Source of the DNA: a phage
Sequence record: PZ386956.1
Reading direction: 5' to 3' (one strand)
Length of the DNA: 53,024 nucleotides
Under the pieces are notes generated by a model. It ran no database searches, had not been told where the DNA came from, and saw only the letters and a program-made list of their open reading frames with translations. Position numbers and translations under genes: made by a program. Below are positions 25,805 to 52,553 of the stretch, piece by piece (within the stretch, counting starts at the first letter, position 1; every line of letters starts with the position of its first letter).

Positions 25805-26006
25805 TAAGCCTGAAGTTGTTTATGTTGATAGGGTAGTCAAGGTTTATCCGCCTGGTGCGTACCTGGTTAAATGCCATAAGCCTGAATTAACAGGTAATAC
25901 CTGGAAGGCAATAGGTCAGTTAGCTATTGAACGTGGAACAGCTCTTGATGATTGTGCAGACAAGATGGACAGCATAATTAACTGGAGTAACAAAGGGGCC
26001 GAGTGA
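25731..26006 (+). CDS. o-spanin lipoprotein (Rz1-like)
   Basis: Starts inside the i-spanin gene in another frame and extends 200 nt past it; signal with lipobox-like LNSC (MTKRQNMIRALIPLLLLPFLNSC), Pro-containing mature part. Confidence 0.55.
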   Translation: MTKRQNMIRALIPLLLLPFLNSCADKPEVVYVDRVVKVYPPGAYLVKCHKPELTGNTWKAIGQLAIERGTALDDCADKMDSIINWSNKGAE

Positions 26007-26021
26007 TGGCCCCTTTATCTA

Positions 26022-26246
26022 TTAGCGTTTTCCTTTCAGCTCGTTATACTGCGCACATGCAGCACACAGCACTGTACCGGGTAAAAGCTGACGTCGTTTT
26101 TCTTCAATGTCTTCCCCACACTGGTAGCACGTCAGCGGGCTTACTCCGGTGTATCTTACTCGGTTCGATAGTGCTGCGTCCCGGGCAACTTGTTCAGCTT
26201 CAGAAGCCATATCAGTAATGTCCGATGTGCGCATAGTCTCAATCAT
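26022..26246 (-). CDS. TraR/DksA-family C4 zinc-finger protein
   Basis: 74 aa with CxxC...(17)...CxxC (CYQCGEDIEEKRRQLLPGTVLCAAC). Confidence 0.65.
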   Translation of the reverse strand: MIETMRTSDITDMASEAEQVARDAALSNRVRYTGVSPLTCYQCGEDIEEKRRQLLPGTVLCAACAQYNELKGKR

Positions 26247-26521
26247 TATTTTCCCTCTTCTTCACAATACAGGGTTTCTAATTCATCGCATAGCTGTTGC
26301 GTCCAGTAATCATCCTCGCCACGTATCTGGAAGCACAGCACAGGAATATCCTGTCGTAAAATATCGCTCTTGTAAATCTTTTTGGCAACAGCTTCTGGTT
26401 CTTCCTGGAATATCTTCATAAACCAGTCCAGGCCTGACGTGCAGCCTGAGGCGTCTAGTATCTCCTTTGCCCTTAACTTAAGCGTTTCATCTGCCTCATA
26501 CTCTAAACCTATCTTAGACAT
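26246..26521 (-). CDS. hypothetical protein
   Basis: 91-aa ORF coupled between polymerase and TraR-like genes. Confidence 0.5.
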   Translation of the reverse strand: MSKIGLEYEADETLKLRAKEILDASGCTSGLDWFMKIFQEEPEAVAKKIYKSDILRQDIPVLCFQIRGEDDYWTQQLCDELETLYCEEEGK

Positions 26522-26536
26522 ATTATAGACCTTTAA

Positions 26537-28504
26537 TTAGTGCGCCTCTGCCCAGTTACTTTCTATCTTAGCATCAGTAAGAACAGGCACACGAAGCGGT
26601 AGCACAGTTTCCATGACCCGTACGAAATCGTAGAATCCATCTTCTGCTTGCTTACCAGTTGGTAGAGAGAAGTTAAGCTCATCGTGTACCGTCAGGCGAG
26701 GCACGCCAATCACGTCGAAGTAACCGTCTTCATACCCTTTCAGCATTGCAGACTTCATCTGGTCTGCTGACGACCCTTGCAGCACTCGGTTGATTGCTTT
26801 GTGGGTGTCTGCCAGTTTAATGTTAGGACCGTACTCCTGACGTGCTTCTTCAAATGGCAAAGGCATCTTACCGAATCCACCACGTTTTGGGACCCATTTG
26901 TTGAACCACGTTTTCCGGCCCATAAAGGTTTCTACATACCCCTGGCTATAACATAAATCTTCATAATGCTTCATGGTAGCACCAATGAATGGTGCACCCT
27001 GATGGTACGCCTTCAGAACAGGTTCTGCTTCTTCAGGCGTCATTGCTAACTTACGGGCAAGAGCATTAAGCATCATGCCGTACAACAAACCAAAGTTGAT
27101 GGTCTTAGCCGGTTTACGCTCTATAACGTGACCTGAGGCTTCCTTGATAATATCGACCATAACATTGTGGTAATCTGCTTCCGGGTTAGCCGCGAAAATT
27201 GCTCGTAACTCATCAGCGCCCGGGCCGACTGCAAAATGCGCCATGAATCGATATTCAATTTGGGCGTAGTCTGCTGATCCCCATCGGTGTCCGACATCCG
27301 GTACGAAACAAGCACGAAGGAGTGGTCCCAGTATTTTGTGTCGAGACGGTATATTCTGCAGATTAGGGTCAGATGAGCTAAACCGACCACTAACGGTTCC
27401 ACCGTCATCACCGCGCATTTGATGGAATTGACCGTGAAGGAAGCCATTTGTATTCATCCCCAATATATAGCCACGAATAAACGTGGACTGGATTTTCTCA
27501 TAAGACTTAATCTCAGACACCAGTTCCGCAAACGGATGGTGCAAGCCTGCTAAGAAGTCCGCTGTAAACGACGGATTACCCGCCGCTGTTTTGAAGTACT
27601 CCAGACCTAAATGGTCAAATGCAAGTGCTAAATCAGGACCGGAGTTAACGTTAATGTTAAAGCCAATCTGGTCTTTAATCTGCTGGTGCATTTTCCTTAT
27701 TTCAGCGCTAAGCGTATCATCCGCCTCTTTGGCCTTGTCAAGGTCAACACGCACACCTGCAAAACGCATCTTAAGCATTAATGGAATGAGCTTGCACTCC
27801 ATATAGAATACGTCTGTTAAACACCAGCGACTTAACAATGGCCACTGGGCTTTGATAATGTGTATTGGTAAGTCGGCGTCAGATTCAGCATAGTAACCCA
27901 CAAGACGAGGAGGTGTTTTGTAGATGTACTTTCTGGCTTCACCTGTTGGCTTACAGCCATAAGCGTCTGAAATCCATTGGTACATCTCGGCTGAGTCTTT
28001 ACCTTCGCCTACATACTTTCGTCCAAGTCCTTCAAGTGCAACACGCGCGCCTGGGTCAAGTAATGCTTCCGCGAATTGTACATCCATGCACAATCCTTTA
28101 ACTTCCACACCTTCTGCTGCAAGCCAGCCCAAGTCATATGTGATGTTAGCACCGACTTTAACTTGGTTAGGTCGCGAGAGTTCGAGCCGAAGCCAACCAA
28201 GTACTTCCTCAGCTGGAAGGTTATCCTCTTCGCCGAGCTCGTGTCTGATTGGGTAGTAAGCTTTGAAGCCGTTGTCCGTAGCGATACTAACTCCAACTAT
28301 ATGACCCTCCCTCCTGGCCCAACCACTACCATTTGTATCCATCCCTGGGTCGTATGTTTCACAGTCAAGACCGATAATCTTTGCAGAAGACAAGTCCGGG
28401 TAATGCGCGCGCGGCCGCCATCCAGTATCCCTGACGTATGGTATAGGACGGTTGATAGGTTTAACATTCTTTGCACCTTCGAAGCTATCGAATAAAAAGC
28501 TCAT
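26537..28504 (-). CDS. DNA polymerase, family A (with 3'-5' exonuclease domain)
   Basis: 655 aa; exo motif GLDCETYD; Pol A motif A DYAQIEYRF, motif B RKPAKTINFGLLYGM, motif C VHDEL. Confidence 0.9.
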   Translation of the reverse strand: MSFLFDSFEGAKNVKPINRPIPYVRDTGWRPRAHYPDLSSAKIIGLDCETYDPGMDTNGSGWARREGHIVGVSIATDNGFKAYYPIRHELGEEDNLPAEEVLGWLRLELSRPNQVKVGANITYDLGWLAAEGVEVKGLCMDVQFAEALLDPGARVALEGLGRKYVGEGKDSAEMYQWISDAYGCKPTGEARKYIYKTPPRLVGYYAESDADLPIHIIKAQWPLLSRWCLTDVFYMECKLIPLMLKMRFAGVRVDLDKAKEADDTLSAEIRKMHQQIKDQIGFNINVNSGPDLALAFDHLGLEYFKTAAGNPSFTADFLAGLHHPFAELVSEIKSYEKIQSTFIRGYILGMNTNGFLHGQFHQMRGDDGGTVSGRFSSSDPNLQNIPSRHKILGPLLRACFVPDVGHRWGSADYAQIEYRFMAHFAVGPGADELRAIFAANPEADYHNVMVDIIKEASGHVIERKPAKTINFGLLYGMMLNALARKLAMTPEEAEPVLKAYHQGAPFIGATMKHYEDLCYSQGYVETFMGRKTWFNKWVPKRGGFGKMPLPFEEARQEYGPNIKLADTHKAINRVLQGSSADQMKSAMLKGYEDGYFDVIGVPRLTVHDELNFSLPTGKQAEDGFYDFVRVMETVLPLRVPVLTDAKIESNWAEAH

Positions 28505-29499
28505 CAGTCCCCTCTCACATACGCAATTACAACTGTACGAGTTGAGTTTTCCATTTTGAGCGCCTGACTACCCAGTCCTATTCTTTCCATGCCTTTAGCC
28601 AGTTTACTCATCTGACTAATAACACAGTTGAACGGTTTACTAAACTTAGTCGACTGGAACTTAATGTCGACGGACATCTTTGGAATAATCTTATCTGGTA
28701 AGTCTGCCTTTGCAGTTGACTCGCCTGTTATCTCCAGAATAGCCTGACCTTCGTCGTACCCAGTAAGCTGGTCCATGACTTCCAGGAACTCAGGAGTGAT
28801 GGCCTGCATATCCATTTCCATATTGAAGAACTTCGATACGTCTGGCCATTTGGCTGCTAGTACCGGAGCATCCATCTGTACACCATCCGCAAAGCCGAAG
28901 AACATCTGGCCGCGGGCGTAACCTACACTTGTGGGTTCCATCTTCAGCTTAACCAGAGCCTCAAGCATTGGTTTGGCTATGGCACATTCAAATTCAAAAT
29001 CTACATTCAACTTCTCGCGTATCATATACTTACCGTTAGTTGCGTAAGCATAACCATCGCGCAGAAGTAAAGATGTTGCCCATATCTGCGGTGCTTCGTT
29101 AGGTACCCATTTGGCTAAGGCAGTTAATACCGGGAGTAATTCGCCATGCGCTGAATACCAGTTGTTAACTGTAGCAAGTGGTGGTATTGGTTCATTAAGC
29201 GCTTGCATTCTTGTTTTAAGTACACCTGCTGTGACTGTGAGGTTTCCAGCGGCTGTAATGTTAAAAGTAATCTGTTCAGTTCTTGCCGCATTAACGGCCT
29301 TACGAAATGATTCAGCATCCACTTGCAGGTCTGGGAATCCTTTACATGGCGCTCGTAGTAATACGTTCTTGTAGTACGAATGGATTGTTCCGTCTGCAAT
29401 CCATATTTTGCCCATAAGACCACTATCAGTATACTTGATGGGACGAGCTTGTTGAACGGCAATCTGTATTTGTTTGGTGTCATAGTTAAACTTGCTCAT
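28504..29499 (-). CDS. hypothetical protein (replication-operon)
   Basis: 331-aa ORF whose stop overlaps the polymerase start; no motif recognised. Confidence 0.5.
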   Translation of the reverse strand: MSKFNYDTKQIQIAVQQARPIKYTDSGLMGKIWIADGTIHSYYKNVLLRAPCKGFPDLQVDAESFRKAVNAARTEQITFNITAAGNLTVTAGVLKTRMQALNEPIPPLATVNNWYSAHGELLPVLTALAKWVPNEAPQIWATSLLLRDGYAYATNGKYMIREKLNVDFEFECAIAKPMLEALVKLKMEPTSVGYARGQMFFGFADGVQMDAPVLAAKWPDVSKFFNMEMDMQAITPEFLEVMDQLTGYDEGQAILEITGESTAKADLPDKIIPKMSVDIKFQSTKFSKPFNCVISQMSKLAKGMERIGLGSQALKMENSTRTVVIAYVRGD

Positions 29500-29529
29500 A
29501 GTATAACGGGGCCGAAGCCCCGCTCCATC

Positions 29530-30414
29530 TTATACGGCCATTTGGAGTTTGATGTTTGGCATTGGCTTGTACTTCTCAACCATTGGCGCAACATCGGCAG
29601 GAGTGAAGTCAAATACTGACACATCGTAAATCGCGTTGATGTCAGGACGACCTTCAAAGTTAGTGTCCAGCGTGGTGTCTGTATTGCTCACGATGCGCTG
29701 TAAGAAAATCTTGGCAGCATCGATATGGTTCTTATAGATATGGTAGTCGCCCAAGGTAACAGTCATATCCCCTACACCAACACCCAGTTCTGCAGCGATG
29801 GTAATCTGCAACATCTGGTGCAGCAGAATATCGTGAGGCAGACCCAGAATAACATCCGCGCTACGCATATGGAACATCAGCTCTAATTCATTACGGTTGT
29901 TAATGAACAGCTGAAAACCATGGTAACAAGGCGGAAGGGCCATGGCGTCCATCTCTTGTGGGTTCCATGCCGTAACGTAAGCCCGGCGGTCGGTAGGTTT
30001 AACCTTCAGCGTTTCAATAACATCTTTAAGCTGGTTAGTGAGAACACCATTCTTATAGAAAGGCTTAATCCACTGCACGCCGTACACAGGACCTAAGTCA
30101 CGGTTGTCTGGCGTACCCCAACGTTTGTTTGCGTCCTGCAGGTTACCTTCCCACCAGTTGCAGCCAAAGCCTTTGAGCGTGTCGACGTTTGAAATGCCGT
30201 TGATAAAGCAGTAAAGCTCAGCAGCAACAGCTTTGATGTTAACAGGTTTAAACACCGGCACCATCAGTTTGTTGTCGTTGAAAGCCAGTTTAAACGCCGT
30301 ACCAAAACAACGGCGGGTACCAACACCTGTACGGTCTACAACATCCTCGCCTTTACGTAAGATAAAAGAAATGATGTCGCTGTAAAGAGAATCGACAGTG
30401 CTGTATGTTTTCAT
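29530..30414 (-). CDS. ThyA-family pyrimidine C5-modifying enzyme with Asp at the specificity site (predicted dCMP methylase/hydroxymethylase)
   Basis: 294 aa; thymidylate-synthase landmarks DRTGVGT, GPVYGVQW, DRRAYVTAWNP, LPPCY (catalytic Cys), RSADVILGLPHDI, GDYHIYKNH; the conserved PFNI Asn is Asp. Confidence 0.85.
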   Translation of the reverse strand: MKTYSTVDSLYSDIISFILRKGEDVVDRTGVGTRRCFGTAFKLAFNDNKLMVPVFKPVNIKAVAAELYCFINGISNVDTLKGFGCNWWEGNLQDANKRWGTPDNRDLGPVYGVQWIKPFYKNGVLTNQLKDVIETLKVKPTDRRAYVTAWNPQEMDAMALPPCYHGFQLFINNRNELELMFHMRSADVILGLPHDILLHQMLQITIAAELGVGVGDMTVTLGDYHIYKNHIDAAKIFLQRIVSNTDTTLDTNFEGRPDINAIYDVSVFDFTPADVAPMVEKYKPMPNIKLQMAV

Positions 30415-31007
30415 TAAAACAGTTCCTTTTGAGCCGGGTTAACGTGTGCGTCGATAATGGCCTGAATGTCAGGTGCTTTCCATCCTTCAGGCTTAACAAT
30501 ATCCTGACCAGACTTATGCTTACTATTGCTTGCATCAGGCTTAGCGCGTTCTTTCGCCATGTTAGCAGCCTGTACCGCATCCCATGCGGCGTCAAGTGGC
30601 CAGTTGTTGTTTGCACACCAGGTAATCAGGTGGATAATTAACTGGGCCAGACGGTCGCAATGAGTGTCTTCAGTATCCTTAACGTATACGATAAGACCTT
30701 CAGCATCAAAGCGGTCCATAAATCCGCATGGCGTAGTCAACAGAATCGGATACTCAAATTCGTTGGTGAACCATGCTGTCTGGTCATACAGGTATAACGT
30801 ACCTGCAGCAATATAGATTAAGTCTACAATACCATCTAAGAATCCAGCTTTATCGCCTTCCTTCTTAGCTTGTTTAATTTCATCCATCTCCTCAATAAGA
30901 CGGTCATAGCGAAGCTTGAACTCTGGCTTACCGCCCTGGCTAATGGGCTTGAGGTCAAACTTCTCGTGGAAAGCTGTAACACCTGCAGCAATTTTACTGA
31001 ATCGCAT
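30414..31007 (-). CDS. MazG-like nucleotide pyrophosphohydrolase (putative)
   Basis: 197 aa, all-alpha with acidic EExxE-type cluster (RLIEEMDEIKQAKKEGD); start overlaps ThyA-like gene; assignment tentative. Confidence 0.4.
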   Translation of the reverse strand: MRFSKIAAGVTAFHEKFDLKPISQGGKPEFKLRYDRLIEEMDEIKQAKKEGDKAGFLDGIVDLIYIAAGTLYLYDQTAWFTNEFEYPILLTTPCGFMDRFDAEGLIVYVKDTEDTHCDRLAQLIIHLITWCANNNWPLDAAWDAVQAANMAKERAKPDASNSKHKSGQDIVKPEGWKAPDIQAIIDAHVNPAQKELF

Positions 31008-31392
31008 TTCTTAACTCCTTACAAACAGTTTCGATAAACTTACGTTTTGTTTCAGTAGACCAGATTATATGTCGGGCCTTCTCTAATACGTCCCAACGGT
31101 CTTTACCCACAGGAAAGGGGACAATGAAGAGGCCGGTGCGAGATATACGCTTGATAAACGGGAACTTGCAACGCATGGTTGTTTCAAATTTGATAAAGTT
31201 ATTTTGCGCTTCGCGTGTAAATTTAACCTTATCAAATTCATGCTCGAGTGTTTGAGCAAGGTTGCATACCTCATGGAAAGAGGATGCAGGCAGGTAGTCT
31301 TCACGACCGACAGTGTTTACGTAGTCAATTTGGCCTTCAAGACGAAGTATCCAAATTCTATAATAAGCTTCAGCGACACGTTGTAGATTCAT
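30994..31392 (-). CDS. hypothetical protein
   Basis: 132-aa ORF, first gene downstream of a promoter/terminator pair. Confidence 0.5.
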   Translation of the reverse strand: MNLQRVAEAYYRIWILRLEGQIDYVNTVGREDYLPASSFHEVCNLAQTLEHEFDKVKFTREAQNNFIKFETTMRCKFPFIKRISRTGLFIVPFPVGKDRWDVLEKARHIIWSTETKRKFIETVCKELRNAIQ

Positions 31393-31418
31393 TGTATCTC
31401 TCCTCTAAAAGATAACTT

Positions 31419-31447
31419 ATTATACCACATCACTCTCTAGTGGTAAA
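31419..31447 (-). promoter_or_regulatory. promoter TTTACC-N17-TATAAT with extended -10 and internal palindrome
   Basis: On minus strand: TTTACCACtagagagtgatgTGGTATAAT; ACCAC/GTGGT arms span the spacer. Confidence 0.45.
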
Positions 31448-31472
31448 GCACTTTTTATGCTTCGGGTAAAAT

Positions 31473-31502
31473 AAAAAGGACCAGCGTTAACTGGTCCTTT
31501 TG
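31473..31502. terminator. bidirectional rho-independent terminator
   Basis: AAAAA-GGACCAG-cgttaa-CTGGTCC-TTTT: 7-bp GC stem flanked by A-run and T-run, so it terminates in either orientation. Confidence 0.6.
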
Positions 31503-31552
31503 GCAGGGTGGCGTAAGGAGATACAAGGAATCGCAGTTATGCAACCAGGCAG

Positions 31553-31641
31553 CGCATATGAGATTGGCTAAAGGACTTACCGACTTAGTCCCCGCGACGA
31601 GTCAGAAAGGAGGTACCGTCAAGTAGCCAATCGCATATGCG
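31553..31641. repeat. long stem-loop element 1 (18-bp inverted repeat, 1 mismatch, ~53-nt loop)
   Basis: cGCATATGaGATTGGCTA ... TAGCCAATCgCATATGCg; loop contains nested hairpin GGACT-taccgact-tAGTCC. Confidence 0.6.
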
Positions 31642-31642
31642 T

Positions 31643-31727
31643 TACTTGCTGTGTGCTCTTACCACATGAAAAGTATATAGCGTTACACTTATCACACAGT
31701 TGTAGTGGCAAAAGCACACAGCGAGTA
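31643..31727. repeat. long stem-loop element 2 (15-bp inverted repeat with one G-T pair, 55-nt loop)
   Basis: TACTTGCTGTGTGCT ... AGCACACAGCGAGTA; inner 10 bp perfect. Confidence 0.6.
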
Positions 31728-31732
31728 CAACC

Positions 31733-31819
31733 TTAGTTGTGGTGTCTTAGCACCTGAGTTACTGTGGATAACCTGCACCCGACGGGTGTCAAAAAGATAC
31801 GCCAAAACACCACAACTAA
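31733..31819. repeat. long stem-loop element 3 (13-bp perfect inverted repeat, 61-nt loop)
   Basis: TTAGTTGTGGTGT ... ACACCACAACTAA; loop contains hairpin CACCCG-a-CGGGTG; followed by 12-bp palindrome CCAGGCGCCTGG (31840-31851). Confidence 0.6.
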
Positions 31820-32070
31820 AATTGTGACCGCCGTCTACACCAGGCGCCTGGGGTCAAGGTAGCGAGCCAATACCCTTTTCAGCGTTGGAGGAATCGAACC
31901 TCACACATCACGGCTTTTACCAAATCTCGGTCAGCGAGCAGAATTGAACTGCATTCACTGGACACCCTCACTGTTTCAACACACCAGGCTTAATTGATTG
32001 TTGATAAGAAGAGAGATGTAAGGATGTCCATTGAATGCACCTCCGTAGAGGTGCGTTCAGATCAGCGCTA

Positions 32071-32538
32071 TTATTCAGCGACTTCTTCGTTGTCGCCTTC
32101 GATCGCGCCAGCCAGTTTAGCAGCTTCAGCTTTAGCAGCTTCTGCTTTCTGGCGAGCTTTTTCAGCTTTCTCTTCAGCTTTGCGGATCTGCTCAGCAGCT
32201 TTCGCTTCGGCTTTTTCAGCTTTGATGCGAGCACGCTCTTCAGCTTTACGCTGTTTTTCAGCGGCTTTAGCAGCATCGCGTTCTGCTTTAGCGGTATCAA
32301 CACGCTTAGCCAGAACTTTACCAGTGGCTTTACGCCAGTAGGTCAGCTGGGAAGAAACAGTACCACGGGACATTTCGGTAGTGGCAACAACTTCGTCCAT
32401 AACGTCAGAGCTGGACTTGCCTTCTTCGTGGGCTTTGTCAGCCAGGTCCCATACATAACGTGCGCCAGTACCAGCTGCCGGATACAGTACGCCGTTAACT
32501 TCTTCTTTACCAGTTACAAAAGTCAGTTTCTCGCTCAT
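32071..32538 (-). CDS. Lys/Ala-rich histone-H1-like DNA-binding protein (putative)
   Basis: Start ATG 32538 (GAGG RBS); C-terminal 70 aa is an AKAE/KAEE low-complexity basic tract. Confidence 0.5.
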   Translation of the reverse strand: MSEKLTFVTGKEEVNGVLYPAAGTGARYVWDLADKAHEEGKSSSDVMDEVVATTEMSRGTVSSQLTYWRKATGKVLAKRVDTAKAERDAAKAAEKQRKAEERARIKAEKAEAKAAEQIRKAEEKAEKARQKAEAAKAEAAKLAGAIEGDNEEVAE

Positions 32539-32586
32539 AATTTTTTCCTCGTCTACAGGGCTTAATGTTTGTTCGTTACGTGAGTT

Positions 32587-32615
32587 AATATACGTCATTT
32601 AAAAGAGTGTGTAAA
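32587..32615 (-). promoter_or_regulatory. promoter TTTACA-N17-TATATT
   Basis: Minus strand TTTACAcactcttttaaatgacgTATATT about 45 nt upstream of the KA-rich gene start. Confidence 0.4.
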
Positions 32616-32644
32616 CACCTTTTTTAAACTTTTTTCATTAGTGT

Positions 32645-32866
32645 CTAGAAAGGCACATCATAGTCAAAAAGTTTACATCCGGAAGACAGGACTGCCGGCG
32701 GTGGTGTTTTGCCTCCGGATAATAGACAGCCTCCTGCCTGGAAGCTACGGCAGTTCGCACAGCTCATATCCTGCAGGTATATAATAAGCTGCCGGCGAAC
32801 GTGCCGCGGTAAAGCTTTAGCCTGGGTTGCTACCCGTTCAAATAGTTCTCTGTCATCGAGCGCCAT
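32645..32866 (-). CDS. small Cys-containing hypothetical protein
   Basis: 73-aa ORF overlapping helicase stop by 14 nt; CANC...GGC...GC motif; weak. Confidence 0.3.
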   Translation of the reverse strand: MALDDRELFERVATQAKALPRHVRRQLIIYLQDMSCANCRSFQAGGCLLSGGKTPPPAVLSSGCKLFDYDVPF

Positions 32867-34523
32867 ATCCGTTTCCCCAGTCGTAGTTCATGATTTGTGG
32901 GTAGGGTCGTTTAATCCATACCTTGATACGCTTAGGAATGGCCAGCTCACCCTTACGGCGAATAAACTCATCGCATGTTTCAGGCGGTTCTGTTCCTGCA
33001 GCATTACGCCACCAGGCATCTGCCATTTGTTTAGCATTGCCATGGGCCTCTATATTTACCCATGTTGTATACACTTCCAGGTTTGAGTAGTACACAACCT
33101 TTATACTGTCAGGTCGTCCCTGCTTCTGGAATAAAGAATAGTTTACCAGCGTAACATCTTTATCCACAACACGAAGCTGACCATTAGTCATTACCTCTTC
33201 TTCTGACGAAGTGAATGCAATAGCAGGTCCGTTAACTGTAAATTCAAATTCATGTCCGCACATCGGATATACACCATTCTCGTCTGGCGTACTTCCTTTA
33301 GCCGGATGTTTACACGTACGAGCAGCATAGCCACTTACCTGGTGACAGATAGGGCACTCTTTACCACCAGGCGTTTTCTCTGACCGTTTCTTTTTCTTCT
33401 TACCAAGACGTGGCGGAACAGCCGGGTCGTCAATAGGTCCAAGGTCAATGGTATTAGATGTAAAGTCCATGACAAGACAGTCATGCTTGCCAGGCGCTGT
33501 ACGTAATCCTCGACCGAGTATCTGCACCCACAAAGCAACGGACGTGGACGGGCGCAAGATGCCGAGCATATCAATCTCAGGATAGTCAAATCCTGTCGTC
33601 AATACGTTTACGTTTACACAGACTCGCGCTCGTCCGCTTGTAAACTCTTCCAGTGCGGCTTCACGTTCTTTCTTTGTAAGACCGCCATGCACAACTACAG
33701 TCTGCCACCCTCGCAGATTAAATTCGTCTGCTATGTTGTGGGCGTGCTCAACACTTGTGGCAAATACAAGAACGTGGTTCCTGTCTTTACCGTAGTGCAT
33801 CATCTCACGAATAGCCGCGACTGTTATACTATGCTGGTTGGCTACCTTCTCAAGCTCTGACGGAATGTAGTCACCCATCCTTTCGCCAACATTACTGGTG
33901 TCAATCTTGGTTAACACTTTCTTGTTGACCAGGCGCGACAGGAAGCCTTCATTTACCAGTCTGGTGAATGCGTCAGGTGTTGTAAGGTCGTAGCAGATGT
34001 CGGTAAATATACCACAGTCCAGCAAGTGACCACCTGCCAGGCGGTACGGAGTTGCTGTGAGTCCTGTTACCTTTACCTTAGGATTAAGCTCTTTGAAGTG
34101 AGCAATAACCTTACGGTATGTTGTTTCAGACTTCTCAGGAACAAGATGGGCTTCGTCAATGAATATAAGATTGAACTTACCTGCTTCTTCCAGGTTCTTA
34201 ATAATCGACTGTACTGACGCTACAACGATACGACCTGAAAAGTCTTTGTGTCCTGCGCCTGAAGAGTAGATAGATACGGGTGCTTGTGGCCAGTGGCGTA
34301 CAATCGCTTTGGCGTCTTGTTCTACCAGCTCCTTGACGTGTGTCAATATAAGAATGCGCTGACGGGGATAGCTGGTAAGAATATCCTTCATCAACATACC
34401 AAGCACAGGTGATTTACCTGAACCTGTCGGCATGACAATAAGTGGATTACCACTATAAGAATTGAAGTACGACCACCAAGCTGTGACCGCTTCTTGTTGA
34501 TACCAGCGAGCTTCAAAAGCCAT
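32853..34523 (-). CDS. SF2 DEAH-box DNA helicase with C-terminal zinc ribbon
   Basis: 556 aa; motif I MPTGSGKS, motif II FIDEAHLV, TAT/ARG motifs; Lys-rich linker then CPICH...C..C. Confidence 0.85.
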   Translation of the reverse strand: MAFEARWYQQEAVTAWWSYFNSYSGNPLIVMPTGSGKSPVLGMLMKDILTSYPRQRILILTHVKELVEQDAKAIVRHWPQAPVSIYSSGAGHKDFSGRIVVASVQSIIKNLEEAGKFNLIFIDEAHLVPEKSETTYRKVIAHFKELNPKVKVTGLTATPYRLAGGHLLDCGIFTDICYDLTTPDAFTRLVNEGFLSRLVNKKVLTKIDTSNVGERMGDYIPSELEKVANQHSITVAAIREMMHYGKDRNHVLVFATSVEHAHNIADEFNLRGWQTVVVHGGLTKKEREAALEEFTSGRARVCVNVNVLTTGFDYPEIDMLGILRPSTSVALWVQILGRGLRTAPGKHDCLVMDFTSNTIDLGPIDDPAVPPRLGKKKKKRSEKTPGGKECPICHQVSGYAARTCKHPAKGSTPDENGVYPMCGHEFEFTVNGPAIAFTSSEEEVMTNGQLRVVDKDVTLVNYSLFQKQGRPDSIKVVYYSNLEVYTTWVNIEAHGNAKQMADAWWRNAAGTEPPETCDEFIRRKGELAIPKRIKVWIKRPYPQIMNYDWGNGYGAR

Positions 34524-34581
34524 TTATCATCTCCTCATTAACTTTATATATTATACCACTTCCTTGTGGTAAAGTATACTT

Positions 34582-35460
34582 TTATTTTAAGGAAAGTTTA
34601 ACGGGCTTCTCATCCTGCGGGAAGACATCAGCGGCGTGATAATCATCGCAAGCCGCTAATTGCTCTTCGGTTGTTTCGAGCTCTTTCTGGTGTTTGTTAC
34701 AATACCACACTTTGCCCTGGAGCGGTTTACTGTAGTGGCAGGTTCTGCAGTTCCTGTCGGGCATTGCTCCTTTGTGGCACAAGTGGTGGTACGTGCACAT
34801 TCCTGGCTTGCACTCCCACCAAATAGGCGATTCAGAAATCTTCGGCATATCCAAACCAGATTCCGCATATACGACAGCCTCTGCTTTGCTCAGTTGTATA
34901 TCACTTTCAAGTAAGTCAATCTCGACCACTTCAAAATACATCTCGTCGGTGTTCTTGTTAATTGCAATATACACAGCTTGATTCAGCTTAAGCTTCCGCA
35001 TGTATACCTGCATCTGTGCATAGTGTACCGGCTTACTGGCTTTAACAGACTTGAGCTTGATTAGCTCTTTAAATGACTTATCACCATGCGTTTTGAATTC
35101 AGCAAGTGCCCATACGCCTTTGTATTTGACTACACAGTCACAAGACCCAGAGAAGATGTCATTGAAATCGTGTATGCGCCACTGCTTACCCGTTTTAGGG
35201 TTGACGTCCAGCACTTCATCACACACGGAACGAAGCCACTTCACAATTCTGCTTTCTTCAAGGTTACCACGTTCAAACAGACGAAGTTGCTTCGCGGTAA
35301 ACTTCTCCTTGTACGACCAGTGCAGAACGTGCCAAAGATAGCGATAGCAGTTGTGTCCTATCTGCGATGCTCCAAGATGCCCGCGTCGTTCTTCTCTTTC
35401 GTGGGCTTCGACTATCTTGATGTCAATACGTTTCTGCAGGTCGTCAAACGGACTGGGCAT
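34582..35460 (-). CDS. Cas4/RecB-like PD-(D/E)xK exonuclease (Fe-S type)
   Basis: Start ATG 35460 (GGAG RBS; track first Met at 35577 is internal to upstream gene); N-terminal Cys plus C-terminal C-x4-C-x5-C cluster, D...EFK nuclease motif. Confidence 0.6.
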   Translation of the reverse strand: MPSPFDDLQKRIDIKIVEAHEREERRGHLGASQIGHNCYRYLWHVLHWSYKEKFTAKQLRLFERGNLEESRIVKWLRSVCDEVLDVNPKTGKQWRIHDFNDIFSGSCDCVVKYKGVWALAEFKTHGDKSFKELIKLKSVKASKPVHYAQMQVYMRKLKLNQAVYIAINKNTDEMYFEVVEIDLLESDIQLSKAEAVVYAESGLDMPKISESPIWWECKPGMCTYHHLCHKGAMPDRNCRTCHYSKPLQGKVWYCNKHQKELETTEEQLAACDDYHAADVFPQDEKPVKLSLK

Positions 35461-35929
35461 TATTAAACTCCTCAATGCTGAATTCGTCGTACACAATGTT
35501 ATGTGCCCACAAATGAGCGACGGCATTTGCCATGCTCTCTTTCCACTTGGATTGTGAAGCTGTATGTGCCAATGCAACTACACGTACCAGGTTAAGGTTG
35601 GCTATCAGCATGTCAGCACAATGTTCGCACGGCGGGTAGGTTATGTAGATGGTAACCGGGCCTAAAGAAGGAGTGTCTAACTCACTCCTTATATTAGCTA
35701 AGGTGTTTATCTCGCTATGAATAGTTAGAGCGTTCTTGAGGCTATTAGGCACTATTCTTATAGAGTCTAACTGCGTAGGCAGACCGTTATATCCAGTGGA
35801 AATAATACGCTTGTTCTGGTCCACAAGAACGCTACCGACTTGACGTTTCGGGTCCTTAGACCAGCTTGCAACTTCACAAGCTATGCGCATAAACCGCCTG
35901 TCCCACTTGTCCATCTTCTTCTTTTGCAT
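35444..35929 (-). CDS. dCMP deaminase
   Basis: 161 aa; zinc-binding HSE (HSEINTLANI) and PCEHC motifs of deoxycytidylate deaminases. Confidence 0.85.
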   Translation of the reverse strand: MQKKKMDKWDRRFMRIACEVASWSKDPKRQVGSVLVDQNKRIISTGYNGLPTQLDSIRIVPNSLKNALTIHSEINTLANIRSELDTPSLGPVTIYITYPPCEHCADMLIANLNLVRVVALAHTASQSKWKESMANAVAHLWAHNIVYDEFSIEEFNNAQSV

Positions 35930-35990
35930 GGTAGTCTCCGTATACGAAAATAGGGGCCGAAGCCCCTATTGAATATCTACTCGGCAGGGA

Positions 35991-36536
35991 TTATTCTTCC
36001 CAAGGAGCTGCTGCACCGTCGTCAGCACCAGGGGCCGTTGCAGTAGCACTCGCCTTCGTTGAAGTACCCGCACCTGCACCTACTTTCTTCGTCGTCGATG
36101 CAGTTGCTTGAGACTGACCGCCTACTGCAGTAGTTGCTTCAGTTGACGCTTTGTATTCGCGAATATCGTTCTGTGGGTCGTACTCACCGGTCTTGTCAAC
36201 GCGAATGCCTACTTTACCAGCTACGATACGGTTTTCCAGCAGGCCAGTAGAAGTCAGTTCAACAATACCCAGAGCACGGCACAATGCAGACAGTTTGCGA
36301 TGACCGATTTCAACAGCTTGTGCGTTAGGGTTGGAGTAAGTAATCATGTCAAATACAACACGGTTAGCAAACTCACCTTCCTGCACTTTCAGACGCAGGG
36401 ACAGGTAAGAACCGGTGCCTGCTTTAGTCGGCTTCAGCTCAACCTCTTCAATCATGAAGTTGTACCAGCCTTTCGGGATTGGGTCAAAAGACTGTTGCGG
36501 TTCGACGGTAGAGCTGTTGAAGTTTAATTCAGCCAT
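35991..36536 (-). CDS. ssDNA-binding protein (putative)
   Basis: 181 aa; globular N-domain, Gly/Ala/Thr/Ser-rich linker, acidic C-terminal tip (DDGAAAPWEE); adjacent to Sak4-like and exonuclease genes. Confidence 0.45.
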   Translation of the reverse strand: MAELNFNSSTVEPQQSFDPIPKGWYNFMIEEVELKPTKAGTGSYLSLRLKVQEGEFANRVVFDMITYSNPNAQAVEIGHRKLSALCRALGIVELTSTGLLENRIVAGKVGIRVDKTGEYDPQNDIREYKASTEATTAVGGQSQATASTTKKVGAGAGTSTKASATATAPGADDGAAAPWEE

Positions 36537-49879: not shown

Positions 49880-50377
49880 GTGGGTAACATTATGAAAATT
49901 GTTCAATTAGAGCCATATCCACCTCAATTGGCTATCGTTTGTAGTGAAAAAGAGCACGAAGAGCTCCAAAAACTGATGGATTTGCCTGATTTTGGCAACT
50001 GGAATGACCGGGAAACGCGTAATGCATCTACCTTTACGTTCACTCGCGTTAACTATCCGTACCTGTTAATCGTCGTCGAACTGTATCACCCGGACGACCT
50101 GAAGTACAACACCATTTCCCACGAAGGCATTCACGTAATGTCGTCGCTGATGAACTATGTAGGGCTTAAATACGACCCAGAAAACGATGAATGGTACGCA
50201 TATCAGCACGATTTCATCGTAAATGCCATTTGTAAGGCCCATGACGAGTACCTGGAGCGCAAAAAAGCGCCAAAACATAAGCCAAAAATCGAAACAGGTA
50301 ACCATCCTGCAATACTGCCACAAGACGTAATGAACTCGCTTTTGACTGACACTACTGGGGACTTTTTAGGTGATTAA
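49880..50377 (+). CDS. HExxH-motif protein (putative Zn-metallopeptidase-like)
   Basis: 165-aa ORF (GTG start; ATG 4 codons later); contains HEGIH in a helix-like context (TISHEGIHVMSSLMNYVG). Confidence 0.5.
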   Translation: MGNIMKIVQLEPYPPQLAIVCSEKEHEELQKLMDLPDFGNWNDRETRNASTFTFTRVNYPYLLIVVELYHPDDLKYNTISHEGIHVMSSLMNYVGLKYDPENDEWYAYQHDFIVNAICKAHDEYLERKKAPKHKPKIETGNHPAILPQDVMNSLLTDTTGDFLGD

Positions 50378-51044
50378 TATTATCTTCGCAATGGGCCAAA
50401 ATGGGGAATTCGGGTTATCTCCGGAGTTTATGAAGCATCAGGTTGACTCGTGCAAGACCATGGAAGAGGTTCGTGCGCTTCCTAAATCTGGTCTACCCTG
50501 GAAATGTCCGTCAGACATGCTATTTTTCAGGACTATGACTAATTCAATTGCGACAGAACCAGGCTATAATGCATATCAGCAACTACGTGGACAGTTCCCA
50601 CAAGACCAGTTGCGAAACATGATAGCAGATGTAACGGTAAAAATGGTAGGACATAGCGTATTGTTAGCCGGTCGTAACACGTATATGACTATGAGTCTGC
50701 CTATGTCAGCCCACAGAATACTGCTGCCGGTATCACGTCAGATTATGGCTTCAGAAGGCTACAATAATTTGGGTGAGATGGCAGCAGACCTTGAATCCAG
50801 AGGTACTGACGTCTGGATTGTAGGTGGTGCCGAGTTGATACTTTCGGCCCTTGAAGAACACGCAAAAGACTTACTCCGTATCGACAACATGTTTATCAGT
50901 ACGATCAAGCAATCAGGTCCAAGTGATATTTTAATGGATCGTAGCAAATTAATGATGTACATTGATAGCGACTTCACTTATAATGATGAATATGTTGATA
51001 ACAAACAAGTTCTGATACAACGGTACAGGAGTTTACACGAATGA
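50370..51044 (+). CDS. dihydrofolate reductase-like protein
   Basis: 224 aa; DHFR-like N-terminus (MINIIFAMGQNGEFG...LPWKCPSDMLFFRTMT), (V)LLAGRNTY and WIVGGAEL blocks; has an insertion relative to bacterial DHFR. Confidence 0.55.
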   Translation: MINIIFAMGQNGEFGLSPEFMKHQVDSCKTMEEVRALPKSGLPWKCPSDMLFFRTMTNSIATEPGYNAYQQLRGQFPQDQLRNMIADVTVKMVGHSVLLAGRNTYMTMSLPMSAHRILLPVSRQIMASEGYNNLGEMAADLESRGTDVWIVGGAELILSALEEHAKDLLRIDNMFISTIKQSGPSDILMDRSKLMMYIDSDFTYNDEYVDNKQVLIQRYRSLHE

Positions 51045-51547
51045 ACATCATAATCGAGGGTCCCGATAATGCTGGTAAAAGTACACTTATTGAGTTCCTT
51101 AAATCTCATACTGGCCGCAGTGTTACTCATAATACTGTTGACAAAGATCCCGAATCGGTCATGGCTAAACAGACCAAAGAAAACGCGCTGGAAGGCGATT
51201 GCATTTATGACCGTAGCGCTGTTATATCTGAGTATATCTATTGCCTGGTTCTTCAACGTACGCCTGTCATCAATATTAATGTATCACATGTAGCAGATAT
51301 GTGTGACAACGCCATCGTTATCTTTTGTATGCCGCCTGTTGAAAAGGTACTGGCAACTACAAAAGACGAGATGCCTGGCGTTGTGGAAAATCTTGAGGCG
51401 TTATACAATCAGTATGACAACCTCATTGACGAGCTGGTTATGATGAGTAAGCAGTTCTTCATTTACGACTGGACTGTTGAAGAAGACGGTCCTGAAGCAG
51501 TTCTAGAATATATCAACGAACGTATTAATAAGGAGTGGAACAAATGA
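51041..51547 (+). CDS. thymidylate-kinase-like P-loop (d)NMP kinase
   Basis: 168 aa; P-loop IIIEGPDNAGKST resembles Tmk IEG.EG.GK(S/T)T; ATGA-coupled to DHFR-like gene. Confidence 0.6.
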   Translation: MNIIIEGPDNAGKSTLIEFLKSHTGRSVTHNTVDKDPESVMAKQTKENALEGDCIYDRSAVISEYIYCLVLQRTPVININVSHVADMCDNAIVIFCMPPVEKVLATTKDEMPGVVENLEALYNQYDNLIDELVMMSKQFFIYDWTVEEDGPEAVLEYINERINKEWNK

Positions 51548-52263: not shown

Positions 52264-52553
52264 TGGACCTGTTCGATATGGTCGAACATCCTGAAGTAAA
52301 CGGCTTGGCGGAAGCTAAGCCTTTTAACTGGGATGAATTCGTAGCAGGCAAACCTGCTGTAACCCACAACGGGCAGATTGCATATTACGGAGGCCATAGC
52401 GAACATCCGATGTGCACTCACCTGTACAACGCTATAACAACCATAACCGACGAAAACGTTATTAAATACGGAAAAGAGGTAATGCCTTTTCTTGTAGATG
52501 AGCGCGGTTACTTCGAAGGTAAATGGTTCCCATTTCTGGTAGAAATGGCCTAA
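52263..52553 (+). CDS. hypothetical protein
   Basis: 96-aa ORF, TGATG-coupled to upstream gene. Confidence 0.5.
   Translation: MDLFDMVEHPEVNGLAEAKPFNWDEFVAGKPAVTHNGQIAYYGGHSEHPMCTHLYNAITTITDENVIKYGKEVMPFLVDERGYFEGKWFPFLVEMA

What the first reader, a model, noticed from the sequence alone, without database searches (positions are those of the whole stretch)
29530..30414. ThyA-family enzyme with Asn->Asp at the pyrimidine-specificity position: predicted dCMP-modifying enzyme, possible modified cytosine in phage DNA
The 294-aa protein carries the thymidylate-synthase landmarks (DRTGVGT, GPVYGVQW, DRRAYVTAWNP, catalytic PPC, RSADVILGLP, GDYHIYKNH), but the motif that is LPFNI in dUMP-specific ThyA reads LPHDI, and the His after the catalytic Cys is Tyr. 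In ThyA this Asn reads the uracil O4/N3; T4 dCMP hydroxymethylase has Asp at the equivalent site, and Asn->Asp substitutions in ThyA shift specificity to dCMP. It is the only ThyA-family gene in the window. The window also encodes a DHFR-like protein (50370..51044), a thymidylate-kinase-like kinase (51041..51547), a MazG-like pyrophosphohydrolase (30414..31007) and dCMP deaminase (35444..35929). DHFR is needed only if the reaction is a reductive methylation, so 5-methyl-dCMP is the most economical guess; 5-hydroxymethyl-dCMP, or dTMP via deamination of 5-methyl-dCMP, cannot be excluded. No glycosyltransferase was recognised; the unknown 301- and 331-aa replication-operon proteins are candidates if a further modification step exists.
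Basis: partly seen in the sequence, partly recalled or inferred. Interest (0 to 1): 0.8.

Follow-up and report, generated by a model that had tools for sequence, protein, structure and literature searches.

The report
Phage enzyme predicted to methylate dCMP
A gene annotated everywhere as an ordinary thymidylate synthase in a widely used group of Salmonella/E. coli phages carries the active-site changes of enzymes that methylate dCMP instead, so these phages probably build their DNA with 5-methylcytosine in place of cytosine, a known trick (phage Xp12) that had not been recognised in this group.

Summary
A 294-aa ThyA-family ORF lies at 29530..30414 on the minus strand. Proper alignments place Asp195 at E. 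coli Asn177, Tyr164 at His147 and Met182 at Gln165. Leu143, Cys146, Asp169 and the TS C-terminus are kept.

The window is a complete Rosemountvirus genome (BP63/yarpen-like). The sampled public records, checked by product label, annotate this gene as "thymidylate synthase".

By published residue codes this signature predicts a dCMP C5-methyltransferase of the Xp12 type, not a hydroxymethylase or 5-hydroxylase. The gene is translationally coupled to a MazG-like hydrolase. A PF00383 deaminase, a DHFR and a dNMP-kinase-like protein are also encoded. This is the same gene set as in the 5mC phage Xp12, and the deaminase and hydrolase are homologous to Xp12's.

Sister-genus phage S144 carries an orthologue 73.8% identical to the query, with the same motifs. 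Its DNA is published as refractory to all seven G/C-site restriction enzymes tested, with the responsible gene unidentified.

No TET, glycosyltransferase or DNA methyltransferase was found.

The principle is known. Its application to this phage group appears unreported.

Caveats: the product is inferred, not shown, and two relatives list McrBC+ K-12 hosts.

The parts
29530..30414 (-). ThyA-family enzyme, 294 aa, predicted dCMP C5-methyltransferase (5-methyl-dCMP synthase)
   Evidence: ORF. PF00303 E=1.2e-62. Active-site signature from alignments. AF2 model pLDDT 92.9 with top Foldseek hits to full-length TS at TM 0.82-0.85.
29830..29832 (-). Codon GAT = Asp195, equivalent to E. coli Asn177 (pyrimidine-specificity residue)
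   Evidence: Conserved in 29/31 clade members.
29923..29928 (-). Codons TGT TAC = catalytic Cys163 (Ec C146) and Tyr164 (Ec H147)
   Evidence: Position 147 is one of the two top discriminating positions in PMC8670742.
30414..31007 (-). MazG-like / PRA-PH all-alpha NTP pyrophosphohydrolase, 197 aa. Its stop overlaps the ThyA start (TAATG). Inferred dCTPase that feeds dCMP and depletes dCTP.
   Evidence: PF01503 E=2e-7 and phrog_671 E=2e-24. Homologous to Xp12 gp60 (44% over 64 aa, E=2e-10). Junction sequence. Substrate is inferred, not shown.
35444..35929 (-). PF00383 dCMP-deaminase-family protein, 161 aa. Inferred to make dT nucleotides from 5-methyl-dC nucleotides, or dUMP from dCMP.
   Evidence: PF00383 E=3e-21. 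33% identical to Xp12 gp58, E=1.5e-22. Best solved relative is 7FH4, the PBCV-1 dCMP/dCTP deaminase, E=2.6e-11.
50370..51044 (+). Dihydrofolate reductase with an N-terminal insertion, 224 aa. Inferred to recycle DHF produced by reductive methylation.
   Evidence: PF00186 at 29.9 bits (cut-off 25) and phrog_316 E=3e-26. Weak similarity to Xp12 DHFR gp57.
51041..51547 (+). Thymidylate-kinase-like P-loop dNMP kinase, 168 aa, overlapping the DHFR stop. Inferred 5-methyl-dCMP kinase.
   Evidence: phrog_761 E=5e-26. TIGR00041 matches only weakly.
26537..29499 (-). Family A DNA polymerase (26537-28504) and sliding clamp (28504-29499), immediately downstream in the same operon
   Evidence: PF00476 E=1.5e-63. 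phrog_947 E=9e-46. Same order in relatives L005, L007 and L009.

Best explanation
The gene encodes an Xp12-type deoxycytidylate C5-methyltransferase, not a thymidylate synthase.

Proposed pathway; every step is inferred, and only the gene content and gene arrangement are shown:
1. The MazG-like hydrolase, translationally coupled upstream, converts dCTP to dCMP. This removes canonical dCTP and supplies substrate.
2. In the ThyA homologue, Cys163 attacks C6 of dCMP while Asp195 reads and protonates the N3/N4 face of cytosine. A methylene is taken from 5,10-CH2-THF and reduced by hydride transfer in a closed, TS-like active site (Leu at position 143, intact C-terminal ...MAV). The products are 5-methyl-dCMP and DHF.
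3. The phage DHFR recycles DHF.
4. The phage dNMP kinase and host NDP kinase make 5-methyl-dCTP.
5. The phage family A polymerase incorporates it, giving virion DNA in which most or all C is 5mC and which resists restriction enzymes with G/C-containing sites.
6. The PF00383 deaminase probably converts part of the 5-methyl-dC nucleotide pool to dT nucleotides, so no separate dUMP-specific TS is needed.
For: Active site and fold:
- Asp at Ec177, Tyr at Ec147 and Met at Ec165. Ec L143, C146, D169, the phosphate-binding arginines and the C-terminus are retained.
- The AF2 model (pLDDT 92.9) matches full-length TS at TM 0.82-0.85.

Published rules and tests:
- N177D gives dCMP specificity. L143 vs D/E distinguishes methyl from hydroxymethyl. 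D169N marks 5-hydroxy-dCMP synthases (PMC13326640).
- Positions 177 and 147 are the two most discriminating TS positions between cytosine-modified and unmodified viral contigs (PMC8670742).
- Xp12 TS and 5 of 7 metagenomic Asp177 enzymes made 5mdC in vivo (preprint 10.1101/2024.12.05.627091).

Conservation:
- Asp177 is kept in 29/31 clade members down to 49% identity.
- Met165 co-varies with Asp177: 22/37 Asp177 enzymes vs 15/200 Asn177 enzymes.
- On an NJ tree the clade lies in a group of about 77 sequences, 62 of them with Asp177, that includes Xp12 TS.

Genomic context:
- The gene set is the same as in Xp12/AXL1: DHFR, deaminase, TS, hydrolase, helicase, PolA, Cas4.
- The deaminase and hydrolase are homologous to Xp12 gp58 and gp60.
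- PRA-PH, PF00383 and DNA_pol_A are the published top neighbours of such TS genes.
- Synteny is conserved in relatives with 53-55% ThyA identity.
- There is no other ThyA gene. Pfam found no ThyX/TET/GT/MTase in the non-structural half; the structural half was not scanned.

Experimental link:
- Sister-genus phage S144 has a ThyA gene 100% nt-identical to ZCSE2's, which is 73.8% aa-identical to the query and has the same motifs.
- S144 DNA is cut only by the AT-site enzymes SspI and PacI and resists seven G/C-site enzymes. The responsible gene was unidentified (PMC7432712).
Against: - No direct chemical evidence exists for this genus. I found no restriction or LC-MS data for any Rosemountvirus.
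- The residue code is imperfect. 2 of 7 tested Asp177 enzymes did not make 5mdC. Xp12 itself has Asn, not Leu, at position 143 in my alignment.
- The clade has its own substitutions near the reaction centre (Tyr147, His176). These are rare among other Asp177 enzymes, and their effect on the product is unknown.
- Two close relatives list K-12 hosts. CF2 lists MG1655, in a record marked UNVERIFIED. BEC1-17 lists K514. By my own knowledge K-12 carries McrBC, which should restrict fully 5mC DNA. No anti-restriction gene was recognised.
- TIGR03284, the TS equivalog model, is passed at 174 bits against a cut-off of 108.
- Engineered N229D/N177D enzymes retain some dUMP activity (my own knowledge of Liu & Santi 1992 and Hardy & Nalivaika 1992).
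Confidence: 0.68

Rival explanations
1. The enzyme is a dCMP hydroxymethylase (T4 gp42-like). The DNA contains 5-hydroxymethylcytosine, possibly further decorated by an unrecognised enzyme.
For: - Asp177 and Met165 are shared with T4 gp42.
- The clade-specific His176 next to Asp177 could in principle activate water (inference only).
- S144 restriction resistance does not distinguish 5mC from 5hmC.
- Growth on McrBC+ K-12 would be easier to explain with a decorated 5hmC.
Against: - Leu143 is retained, whereas hydroxymethylases have Asp/Glu there (PMC13326640; T4 has Asp).
- The full TS C-terminus (...MAV) aligns to E. coli/human TS, while T4 gp42 lacks it.
- Identity to gp42 is only 22% (E=9e-5), against 34.5% to E. 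coli ThyA.
- A conserved DHFR is present with no dUMP-specific TS to justify it.
- No glycosyltransferase or other tailoring enzyme was detected in the non-structural half.
- Bare 5hmC would also be an McrBC substrate (my own knowledge).
Confidence: 0.12
2. It is an ordinary dUMP-specific thymidylate synthase, as annotated. The phage simply boosts dTTP supply (dCMP deaminase to dUMP, then TS to dTMP, then TMP kinase, with DHFR recycling), and the DNA is canonical.
For: - The sampled public records, checked by product label, annotate it this way.
- It passes TIGR03284.
- The accessory genes form a textbook dTMP pathway, as argued for S144 (PMC7432712).
- Two clade members on short contigs have Asn177.
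Against: - Asn177 is the determinant that excludes dCMP. Its replacement by Asp is conserved under selection across the clade, together with changes at 147 and 165 that track cytosine modification.
- S144, with the orthologous enzyme, has restriction-refractory DNA and no other candidate gene.
- The score falls far below the four ThyA-type equivalog cut-offs, for example NF002497 at 189 vs 327.
Confidence: 0.08
3. The enzyme methylates dCMP, but 5-methyl-dCMP serves mainly as an intermediate to dTMP via the deaminase. Little or no 5mC then ends up in DNA, or replacement is only partial.
For: The linked deaminase family includes 5mC-selective enzymes proposed to make dT nucleotides. McrBC+ hosts are listed. 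No dCTPase activity has been demonstrated for the MazG-like protein.
Against: S144 DNA resisted all seven G/C-site enzymes, which implies extensive modification. The pathway would be a pointless detour, because the host already provides ThyA. Xp12, with the same module, replaces all C.
Confidence: 0.07
4. The clade-specific active site (Tyr147, His176, Met165, Asp177) makes a different, so far undescribed C5 product, as happened with the recently discovered 5-hydroxy-dCMP synthases.
For: TS homologues have proved chemically more versatile than expected (PMC13326640). The Tyr147+His176 combination occurs in all 31 clade members but in almost none of the other Asp177 enzymes.
Against: The only published marker of non-C1 chemistry (D169N) is absent. 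All folate-side and C-terminal TS features are retained. No downstream tailoring genes were detected.
Confidence: 0.05

Closest known systems
Xanthomonas phage Xp12 thymidylate-synthase homologue gp59 (dCMP methyltransferase) and its module, shared by AXL1, Bosa and PaMx74-type phages
   Same: - Asp at Ec177, loss of His147, a hydrophobic residue at Ec165 and retention of D169.
- Adjacent MazG-like hydrolase, PF00383 deaminase and DHFR, plus PolA, helicase and Cas4 nuclease.
- The hydrolase and deaminase are demonstrably homologous.
- DNA of related phages resists enzymes with G/C-containing sites.
   Different: - Only 29% identity to Xp12 TS; the query is closer to E. coli ThyA at 34.5%.
- The query keeps Leu143 and the TS C-terminus, and Xp12 does not.
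- The clade has its own Tyr147/His176.
- The genes are dispersed (ThyA at 29.5 kb, deaminase at 35.4 kb, DHFR and kinase at 50.4 kb) rather than contiguous.
- The virion is a myovirus of Enterobacteriaceae (46% GC), not a siphovirus of Xanthomonas (AXL1 67% GC).
- The product has not been measured.
Engineered N229D (L. casei) / N177D (E. coli) thymidylate synthase
   Same: The same single substitution on an otherwise TS-like scaffold. It converts TS into a dCMP methylase (cited in PMC8670742 and PMC13326640).
   Different: This is a natural enzyme with additional co-adapted changes (H147Y, Q165M, F176H) conserved across a clade.
T4 gp42 dCMP hydroxymethylase
   Same: ThyA superfamily. Asp at the specificity position, Met at Ec165, catalytic Cys.
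   Different: T4 has Asp at Ec143, lacks the TS C-terminus, is 48 aa shorter and shares 22% identity. It works with glucosyltransferases, and none was detected here.
RB69 gp48 / DLP3 gp80 5-hydroxy-dCMP synthases
   Same: ThyA homologues acting on dCMP with Asp177.
   Different: They carry the diagnostic D169N and L143E, whereas the query has Asp169 and Leu143. No arabinosylation genes are present.
mSCD-B5-type 5mC-selective deaminase contigs (MetaGPA, NEB preprint)
   Same: A PF00383 deaminase linked to an Asp177 TS, a PRA-PH hydrolase and PolA. The nearest solved structure for both is 7FH4.
   Different: The sequence of mSCD-B5 was not available to me, and the selectivity of the window's deaminase is unknown. 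Here the deaminase lies about 5 kb from the TS, outside the +/-3 kb window that study used.

Membership tests
ThyA / thymidylate synthase superfamily (PF00303) | Pfam PF00303 match above the gathering score over the full domain | tested here: met
   211.9 bits vs 24.3, residues 11-294 on profile 3-266/266.
ThyA / thymidylate synthase superfamily (PF00303) | Catalytic Cys (Ec146), phosphate-binding Arg21/126/127/166, Glu58, Tyr94, His207, Tyr209 | tested here: met
   All conserved in the alignment.
ThyA / thymidylate synthase superfamily (PF00303) | TS fold | tested here: met
   AF2 pLDDT 92.9, pTM 0.91. Foldseek top hits are human/mouse TS, E~1e-26, TM 0.82-0.85.
Canonical dUMP-specific thymidylate synthase (EC 2.1.1.45) | Asn at Ec177 reading uracil O4/N3 | tested here: not met
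   Asp195.
Canonical dUMP-specific thymidylate synthase (EC 2.1.1.45) | His147 and Gln165 of the O4 hydrogen-bond network | tested here: not met
   Tyr164 and Met182. In Asn177 homologues His147 occurs in 199/200 and Gln165 in 173/200.
Canonical dUMP-specific thymidylate synthase (EC 2.1.1.45) | Curated NCBIfam equivalog cut-offs | tested here: inconclusive
   Passes TIGR03284 (174.3 vs 108.35) but fails NF002497 (189 vs 327), NF002496, NF002499 and the others.
Xp12-type dCMP C5-methyltransferase (5mdCMP synthase) | Asp at Ec177 | tested here: met
   Asp195, conserved in 29/31 clade members.
Xp12-type dCMP C5-methyltransferase (5mdCMP synthase) | No acidic residue at Ec143 (methyl rather than hydroxymethyl) and Asp169 retained (not a hydroxylase) | tested here: met
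   Leu160 and Asp187. Rule taken from PMC13326640.
Xp12-type dCMP C5-methyltransferase (5mdCMP synthase) | Co-encoded PF00383 deaminase, PRA-PH/MazG hydrolase and DHFR | tested here: met
   Homology to Xp12 gp58 and gp60. Same gene set in Xp12/AXL1.
Xp12-type dCMP C5-methyltransferase (5mdCMP synthase) | Common descent with Xp12 TS | tested here: inconclusive
   29% identity, tblastn E=1e-21. A rough NJ tree places both in one Asp177-rich group (62/77), but at least 13 changes at position 177 are inferred overall.
Xp12-type dCMP C5-methyltransferase (5mdCMP synthase) | Enzyme converts dCMP + CH2-THF to 5-methyl-dCMP + DHF | not testable with these tools
   Needs an enzyme or in vivo assay.
Xp12-type dCMP C5-methyltransferase (5mdCMP synthase) | Virion DNA has 5mC replacing C | not testable with these tools
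   Indirect evidence only: S144 of the sister genus, whose orthologue is 73.8% identical to the query, has DNA refractory to 7 G/C-site enzymes.
T4-type dCMP hydroxymethylase | Acidic residue at Ec143 | tested here: not met
   The query has Leu; T4 gp42 has Asp.
T4-type dCMP hydroxymethylase | Partner glycosyltransferase(s) or other tailoring enzymes acting on 5hmC | tested here: not met
   No GT, TET or kinase-type tailoring family among 37 other non-structural ORFs. Unknown ORFs remain.
5-hydroxy-dCMP synthase (RB69 gp48 type) | D169N | tested here: not met
   Asp187 is retained.

The most novel reading that the evidence does not exclude
Rosemountvirus and Loughboroughvirus would be the first phages of E. 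coli/Salmonella whose DNA has cytosine wholesale replaced at the nucleotide-pool level by 5mC, made by a lineage of ThyA with its own active-site solution (Tyr147/Met165/His176/Asp177). Some isolates are recorded on McrBC+ E. coli K-12. They would therefore also have to carry either an unrecognised inhibitor of type IV (McrBC/Mrr/McrA) restriction or a further, undescribed cytosine modification, encoded among the many unknown ORFs. Examples are those translationally coupled to DHFR and the kinase at 49880-50377 and 51535-52263.
Probability: 0.2. Interest if true: 0.7.

Novelty: new member of a known kind. Interest (0 to 1): 0.45.

Why it matters
- **Annotation.** The sampled public genomes of this group label the gene "thymidylate synthase". 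The S144 paper read the gene set as a dTTP pathway while stating that the gene behind the cytosine modification could not be found. This analysis supplies the missing candidate and a complete pathway.
- **Applied use.** These phages are in applied use. [quoted passage not shown] A 5mC genome would help explain the broad host range through evasion of type I-III restriction. It would also predict a specific weakness to type IV systems, which matters for cocktail design.
- **Model system.** A 5mC-substituted phage growing on E. coli or Salmonella would be a far more tractable model than Xp12 on Xanthomonas. It would also be a convenient source of fully 5-methylated DNA and of dCMP methyltransferase, 5mC-deaminase and dCTPase enzymes.
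- **Natural comparison.** The two Asn177 members of the clade offer a natural specificity-switch pair.

Tried and rejected
- **Restriction-site avoidance as an independent test of cytosine protection**. G/C-containing and AT-only palindromes behave alike (mean z -0.40 vs -0.49 for 6-mers), so the test does not discriminate. It revealed only GATC/GATATC/CTAG depletion.
- **Direct restriction or modification data for Rosemountvirus or Loughboroughvirus isolates.** I searched the papers on swi3, PA13076, ZCSE2, vB_SenM-1, SE13/SE4, S1, the SPLA phages, AV127 and SA173 and found none. Only S144 has data.
- **Prior naming of the activity in enterobacterial phages**. None found.
The 331-aa protein is the sliding clamp. 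The 301-aa protein has no Pfam, NCBIfam or PDB sequence match. Its AF2 model (pLDDT 79.5, pTM 0.47) shows tandem SH3/Tudor-like barrels plus a coiled coil, with no significant Foldseek match.
- **Unknown ORFs coupled to DHFR and the kinase (49880-50377, 51535-52263).** No informative match in Pfam, NCBIfam, PHROGs or PDB.
- **Recognisable anti-restriction proteins among 10 early ORFs.** None.
- **CpG depletion as a 5mC deamination signature.** CpG o/e is 0.92, which is uninformative, and no such signal is expected if every C is methylated.
Full report
**1. What is in the sequence**

The coordinates 29530..30414 hold a 294-aa ATG-initiated ORF on the minus strand. The plus-strand frame is full of stops.

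The window is a complete Rosemountvirus genome. It is 96-98% identical at the nucleotide level to Salmonella/Escherichia phages yarpen, emhyr, BP63, swi3 and others. The sampled records, checked by product label, call this gene "thymidylate synthase".

**2. The substitution is real and placed correctly**

I aligned the protein three ways:
- HMMER alignments to solved TS structures.
- A 274-sequence MAFFT alignment that includes E. coli ThyA, T4 gp42 and Xp12 TS, all fetched from annotated records.
- A five-sequence L-INS-i alignment.

All three put Asp195 (GAT, 29830-29832) at E. coli Asn177 and Tyr164 at His147.

The 12 residues within 6 Å of C5 are listed in PMC13326640. At those positions E. 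coli reads W Y A L C H Q S C D G N and the query reads W Y A L C Y M S A D G D. The differences are H147Y, Q165M, C168A and N177D. Leu143, Cys146 and Asp169 are kept.

The C-terminus (...PNIKLQMAV) aligns to the end of E. coli and human TS. An AlphaFold model (pLDDT 92.9, pTM 0.91) has full-length mammalian TS as its best structural neighbours (TM 0.82-0.85).

**3. It is under selection, not noise**

The closest homologues form a sharply separated clade. It has 31 cluster representatives at 49-98% identity, on contigs of 45-54 kb, followed by a drop to about 37% identity for cellular ThyA.
- 29 of the 31 have Asp177.
- All 31 have Tyr147, His176 and Met165.
- The two exceptions have Asn177 and sit on contigs of 1-1.5 kb.

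Among the 238 other homologues, 200 have Asn, 37 have Asp and 1 has Ser.

Met165 co-varies with Asp177: 22/37 in the Asp set against 15/200 in the Asn set. T4 gp42 has Met and Xp12 has Leu at this position.

On a rough neighbour-joining tree the clade sits in a group of about 77 sequences. Of these, 62 have Asp177, and the group includes Xp12 TS. At least 13 changes at position 177 are needed overall.

**4. What the literature says such an enzyme does**

- N177D (L. casei N229D) converts TS into a dCMP methylase. This is cited in PMC8670742 and PMC13326640.
- In sewage and marine viromes, positions 177 and 147 are the two most discriminating TS positions between cytosine-modified and unmodified contigs (PMC8670742).
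- PMC13326640 gives a working code. Asp177 indicates a dCMP substrate. Leu143 indicates a methyl product and Asp/Glu143 a hydroxymethyl product. D169N indicates a 5-hydroxy-dCMP synthase.
- The preprint 10.1101/2024.12.05.627091 shows that Xp12 TS and 5 of 7 metagenomic Asp177 enzymes make 5mdC in vivo. Such genes co-localise with PF00383 deaminases, PRA-PH hydrolases and family A polymerases. Some of those deaminases are 5mC-selective and are proposed to supply dT nucleotides.

By this code the query (Asp177, Leu143, Asp169) is a predicted 5-methyl-dCMP synthase.

**5. The genomic context matches Xp12**

| Gene | Window coordinates | Evidence |
|---|---|---|
| PRA-PH/MazG-like hydrolase | 30414-31007 (-) | PF01503, phrog_671 |
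| PF00383 deaminase | 35444-35929 (-) | E=3e-21 |
| DHFR | 50370-51044 (+) | PF00186 above cut-off, phrog_316 E=3e-26 |
| Thymidylate-kinase-like kinase | 51041-51547 (+) | phrog_761 E=5e-26 |

The hydrolase's stop codon overlaps the ThyA start (TAATG).

Xp12 and AXL1 encode DHFR, deaminase, TS and hydrolase side by side, together with helicase, Pol I and a Cas4 nuclease. The window's deaminase is 33% identical to Xp12 gp58 (E=1.5e-22). Its hydrolase shares a 64-aa block at 44% identity with Xp12 gp60. tblastn with the hydrolase finds, outside the Rosemountvirus/Loughboroughvirus-like enterobacterial group, mainly Xp12-group phages and Microbacterium/Curtobacterium phages.

The deaminase's nearest solved relative is 7FH4, the PBCV-1 dCMP/dCTP deaminase. 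The preprint names the same structure as nearest to its 5mC-selective mSCD-B5.

The order deaminase, Cas4, helicase, MazG, ThyA, clamp, PolA is conserved in metagenomic relatives whose ThyA is only 53-55% identical.

There is no second ThyA frame. Pfam finds no ThyX, TET/JBP, glycosyltransferase or DNA methyltransferase among 37 other non-structural ORFs.

**6. Experimental link**

Phage S144 belongs to Loughboroughvirus, the sister genus. Its DNA was cut only by SspI and PacI and resisted XhoI, EheI, MauBI, Cfr42I, NotI, Bsp120I and SspDI after growth on three hosts. The authors concluded that it is "modified on the cytosine". They could not find the gene, and they interpreted ThyA, deaminase, kinase and DHFR as a dTTP pathway (PMC7432712).

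S144's ThyA gene is 100% identical in nucleotide sequence to that of ZCSE2. ZCSE2's protein is 73.8% identical to the query and carries the same LPHDI and PPCY motifs. For Rosemountvirus itself I found no restriction or mass-spectrometry data.

**7. Mechanism proposed**

All steps are inferred except the gene content and arrangement.
1. The MazG-like enzyme hydrolyses dCTP to dCMP.
2. The ThyA homologue methylates dCMP reductively, producing DHF.
3. DHFR recycles the folate.
4. The kinase and host NDK produce 5-methyl-dCTP.
5. PolA incorporates it.
6. The deaminase diverts part of the pool to dT nucleotides.

The DHFR argument is sound. With no dUMP-specific TS in the genome, a conserved DHFR makes sense only if the Asp177 enzyme oxidises its folate.

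**8. Caveats**

- The code is empirical. 2 of 7 tested Asp177 enzymes gave no 5mdC. Xp12 has Asn rather than Leu at position 143 in my alignment.
- The clade's Tyr147/His176 pair is almost unique among Asp177 enzymes, and its effect on the product is unknown.
- Two relatives list K-12 hosts: CF2 on MG1655, in a record marked UNVERIFIED, and BEC1-17 on K514. By my own knowledge K-12 carries McrBC, which should attack fully 5mC DNA. No anti-restriction protein was recognised among 10 early ORFs. This is unexplained and is the main route to something more novel.

**9.

The 331-aa protein is the sliding clamp (phrog_947). The 301-aa protein has no sequence match to any family or solved structure. 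It models as tandem SH3/Tudor-like barrels plus a long coiled coil, with no significant fold match. Neither looks like an enzyme.

**10. Verdict**

This is a new member of a known kind, the Xp12-type dCMP methyltransferase module. It appears unrecognised in a well-sampled and applied group of enterobacterial phages, and it explains a published unexplained phenotype. I put about 0.85 on a dCMP-modifying enzyme of some kind and about 0.68 on the full 5mC pathway.

Noticed in passing
window 1-53024 (whole genome): GATC is about five-fold depleted (34 observed vs about 157 expected from a Markov model, z=-12.5). GATATC (EcoRV site) is absent (0 vs 13.5 expected) and CTAG is halved. Other palindromes are not avoided as a class. 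This suggests pressure from an adenine-reading system (Dam/MutH, DpnI/DpnII-like) that a C5 modification would not block.
   Followed up: partly
KY608966.1 (L006) and PP583539.1 in the 'phages' collection: Escherichia phage CF2 is a Rosemountvirus-type genome (96% identical over the 10-kb query, window 26000-36000). Its record is filed under Tequatrovirus and marked UNVERIFIED, with host MG1655. A 'Listeria phage 220426122051' has a ThyA 98.3% identical to the query. Both records look mis-assigned in taxonomy or host.
   Followed up: no
P0013 and P0020 (metagenomic contigs of 1.0-1.6 kb): Two members of the phage ThyA clade (53-55% identical to the query) read LGLPHNI. They have Asn177 while keeping Tyr147, Met165 and His176. 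This is a natural specificity-position variant on the same scaffold. Their genomic context is unknown because the contigs are short.
   Followed up: partly
window 49880-52553 (+): Five ORFs with overlapping or abutting ends form one apparent operon: unknown 165 aa (phrog_1365), DHFR, kinase, unknown 242 aa (phrog_37540), unknown 96 aa. The two larger unknowns have no match in Pfam, NCBIfam or PDB. The 242-aa protein could instead be a small terminase subunit.
   Followed up: partly
window 38314-39219 (-): The conserved 301-aa protein models as several small SH3/Tudor-like beta-barrels followed by a roughly 60-residue coiled coil (pLDDT 79.5). The weak fold hits are tandem SH3 and Tudor domains. 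Relatives carry N-terminal extensions of up to about 140 aa. Function unknown.
   Followed up: yes
L004:7327-8196 (Xp12 TS gp59) vs E. coli ThyA: In my alignments the experimentally validated 5mdCMP synthase of Xp12 has Asn, not a bulky hydrophobic residue, at E. coli position 143, and it lacks the conserved TS C-terminus. The published 'Leu143 = methyl product' rule is therefore not universal.
   Followed up: partly
window 50370-51044 (+): The DHFR is 224 aa against about 160 aa for typical enzymes. An insertion of roughly 25 aa splits the N-terminal glycine-rich/'LPW' motif and a second insertion follows it. Pfam aligns only residues 94-188.
   Followed up: no
window 34582-35577 (-): The longest ORF for the Cas4/PD-(D/E)XK nuclease (TTG start, 331 aa) overlaps the deaminase gene by more than 130 nt. 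The annotated start in phage yarpen gives 292 aa, so the true start is probably internal.
   Followed up: no
window 35444-35929 (-): The N-terminal part of the phage deaminase (residues 12-55) matches NCBIfam 'anti-phage dCTP deaminase' NF041025 at E=2e-10, far below its cut-off. This places the protein among relatives that include dCTP-acting deaminases as well as dCMP deaminases.
   Followed up: no
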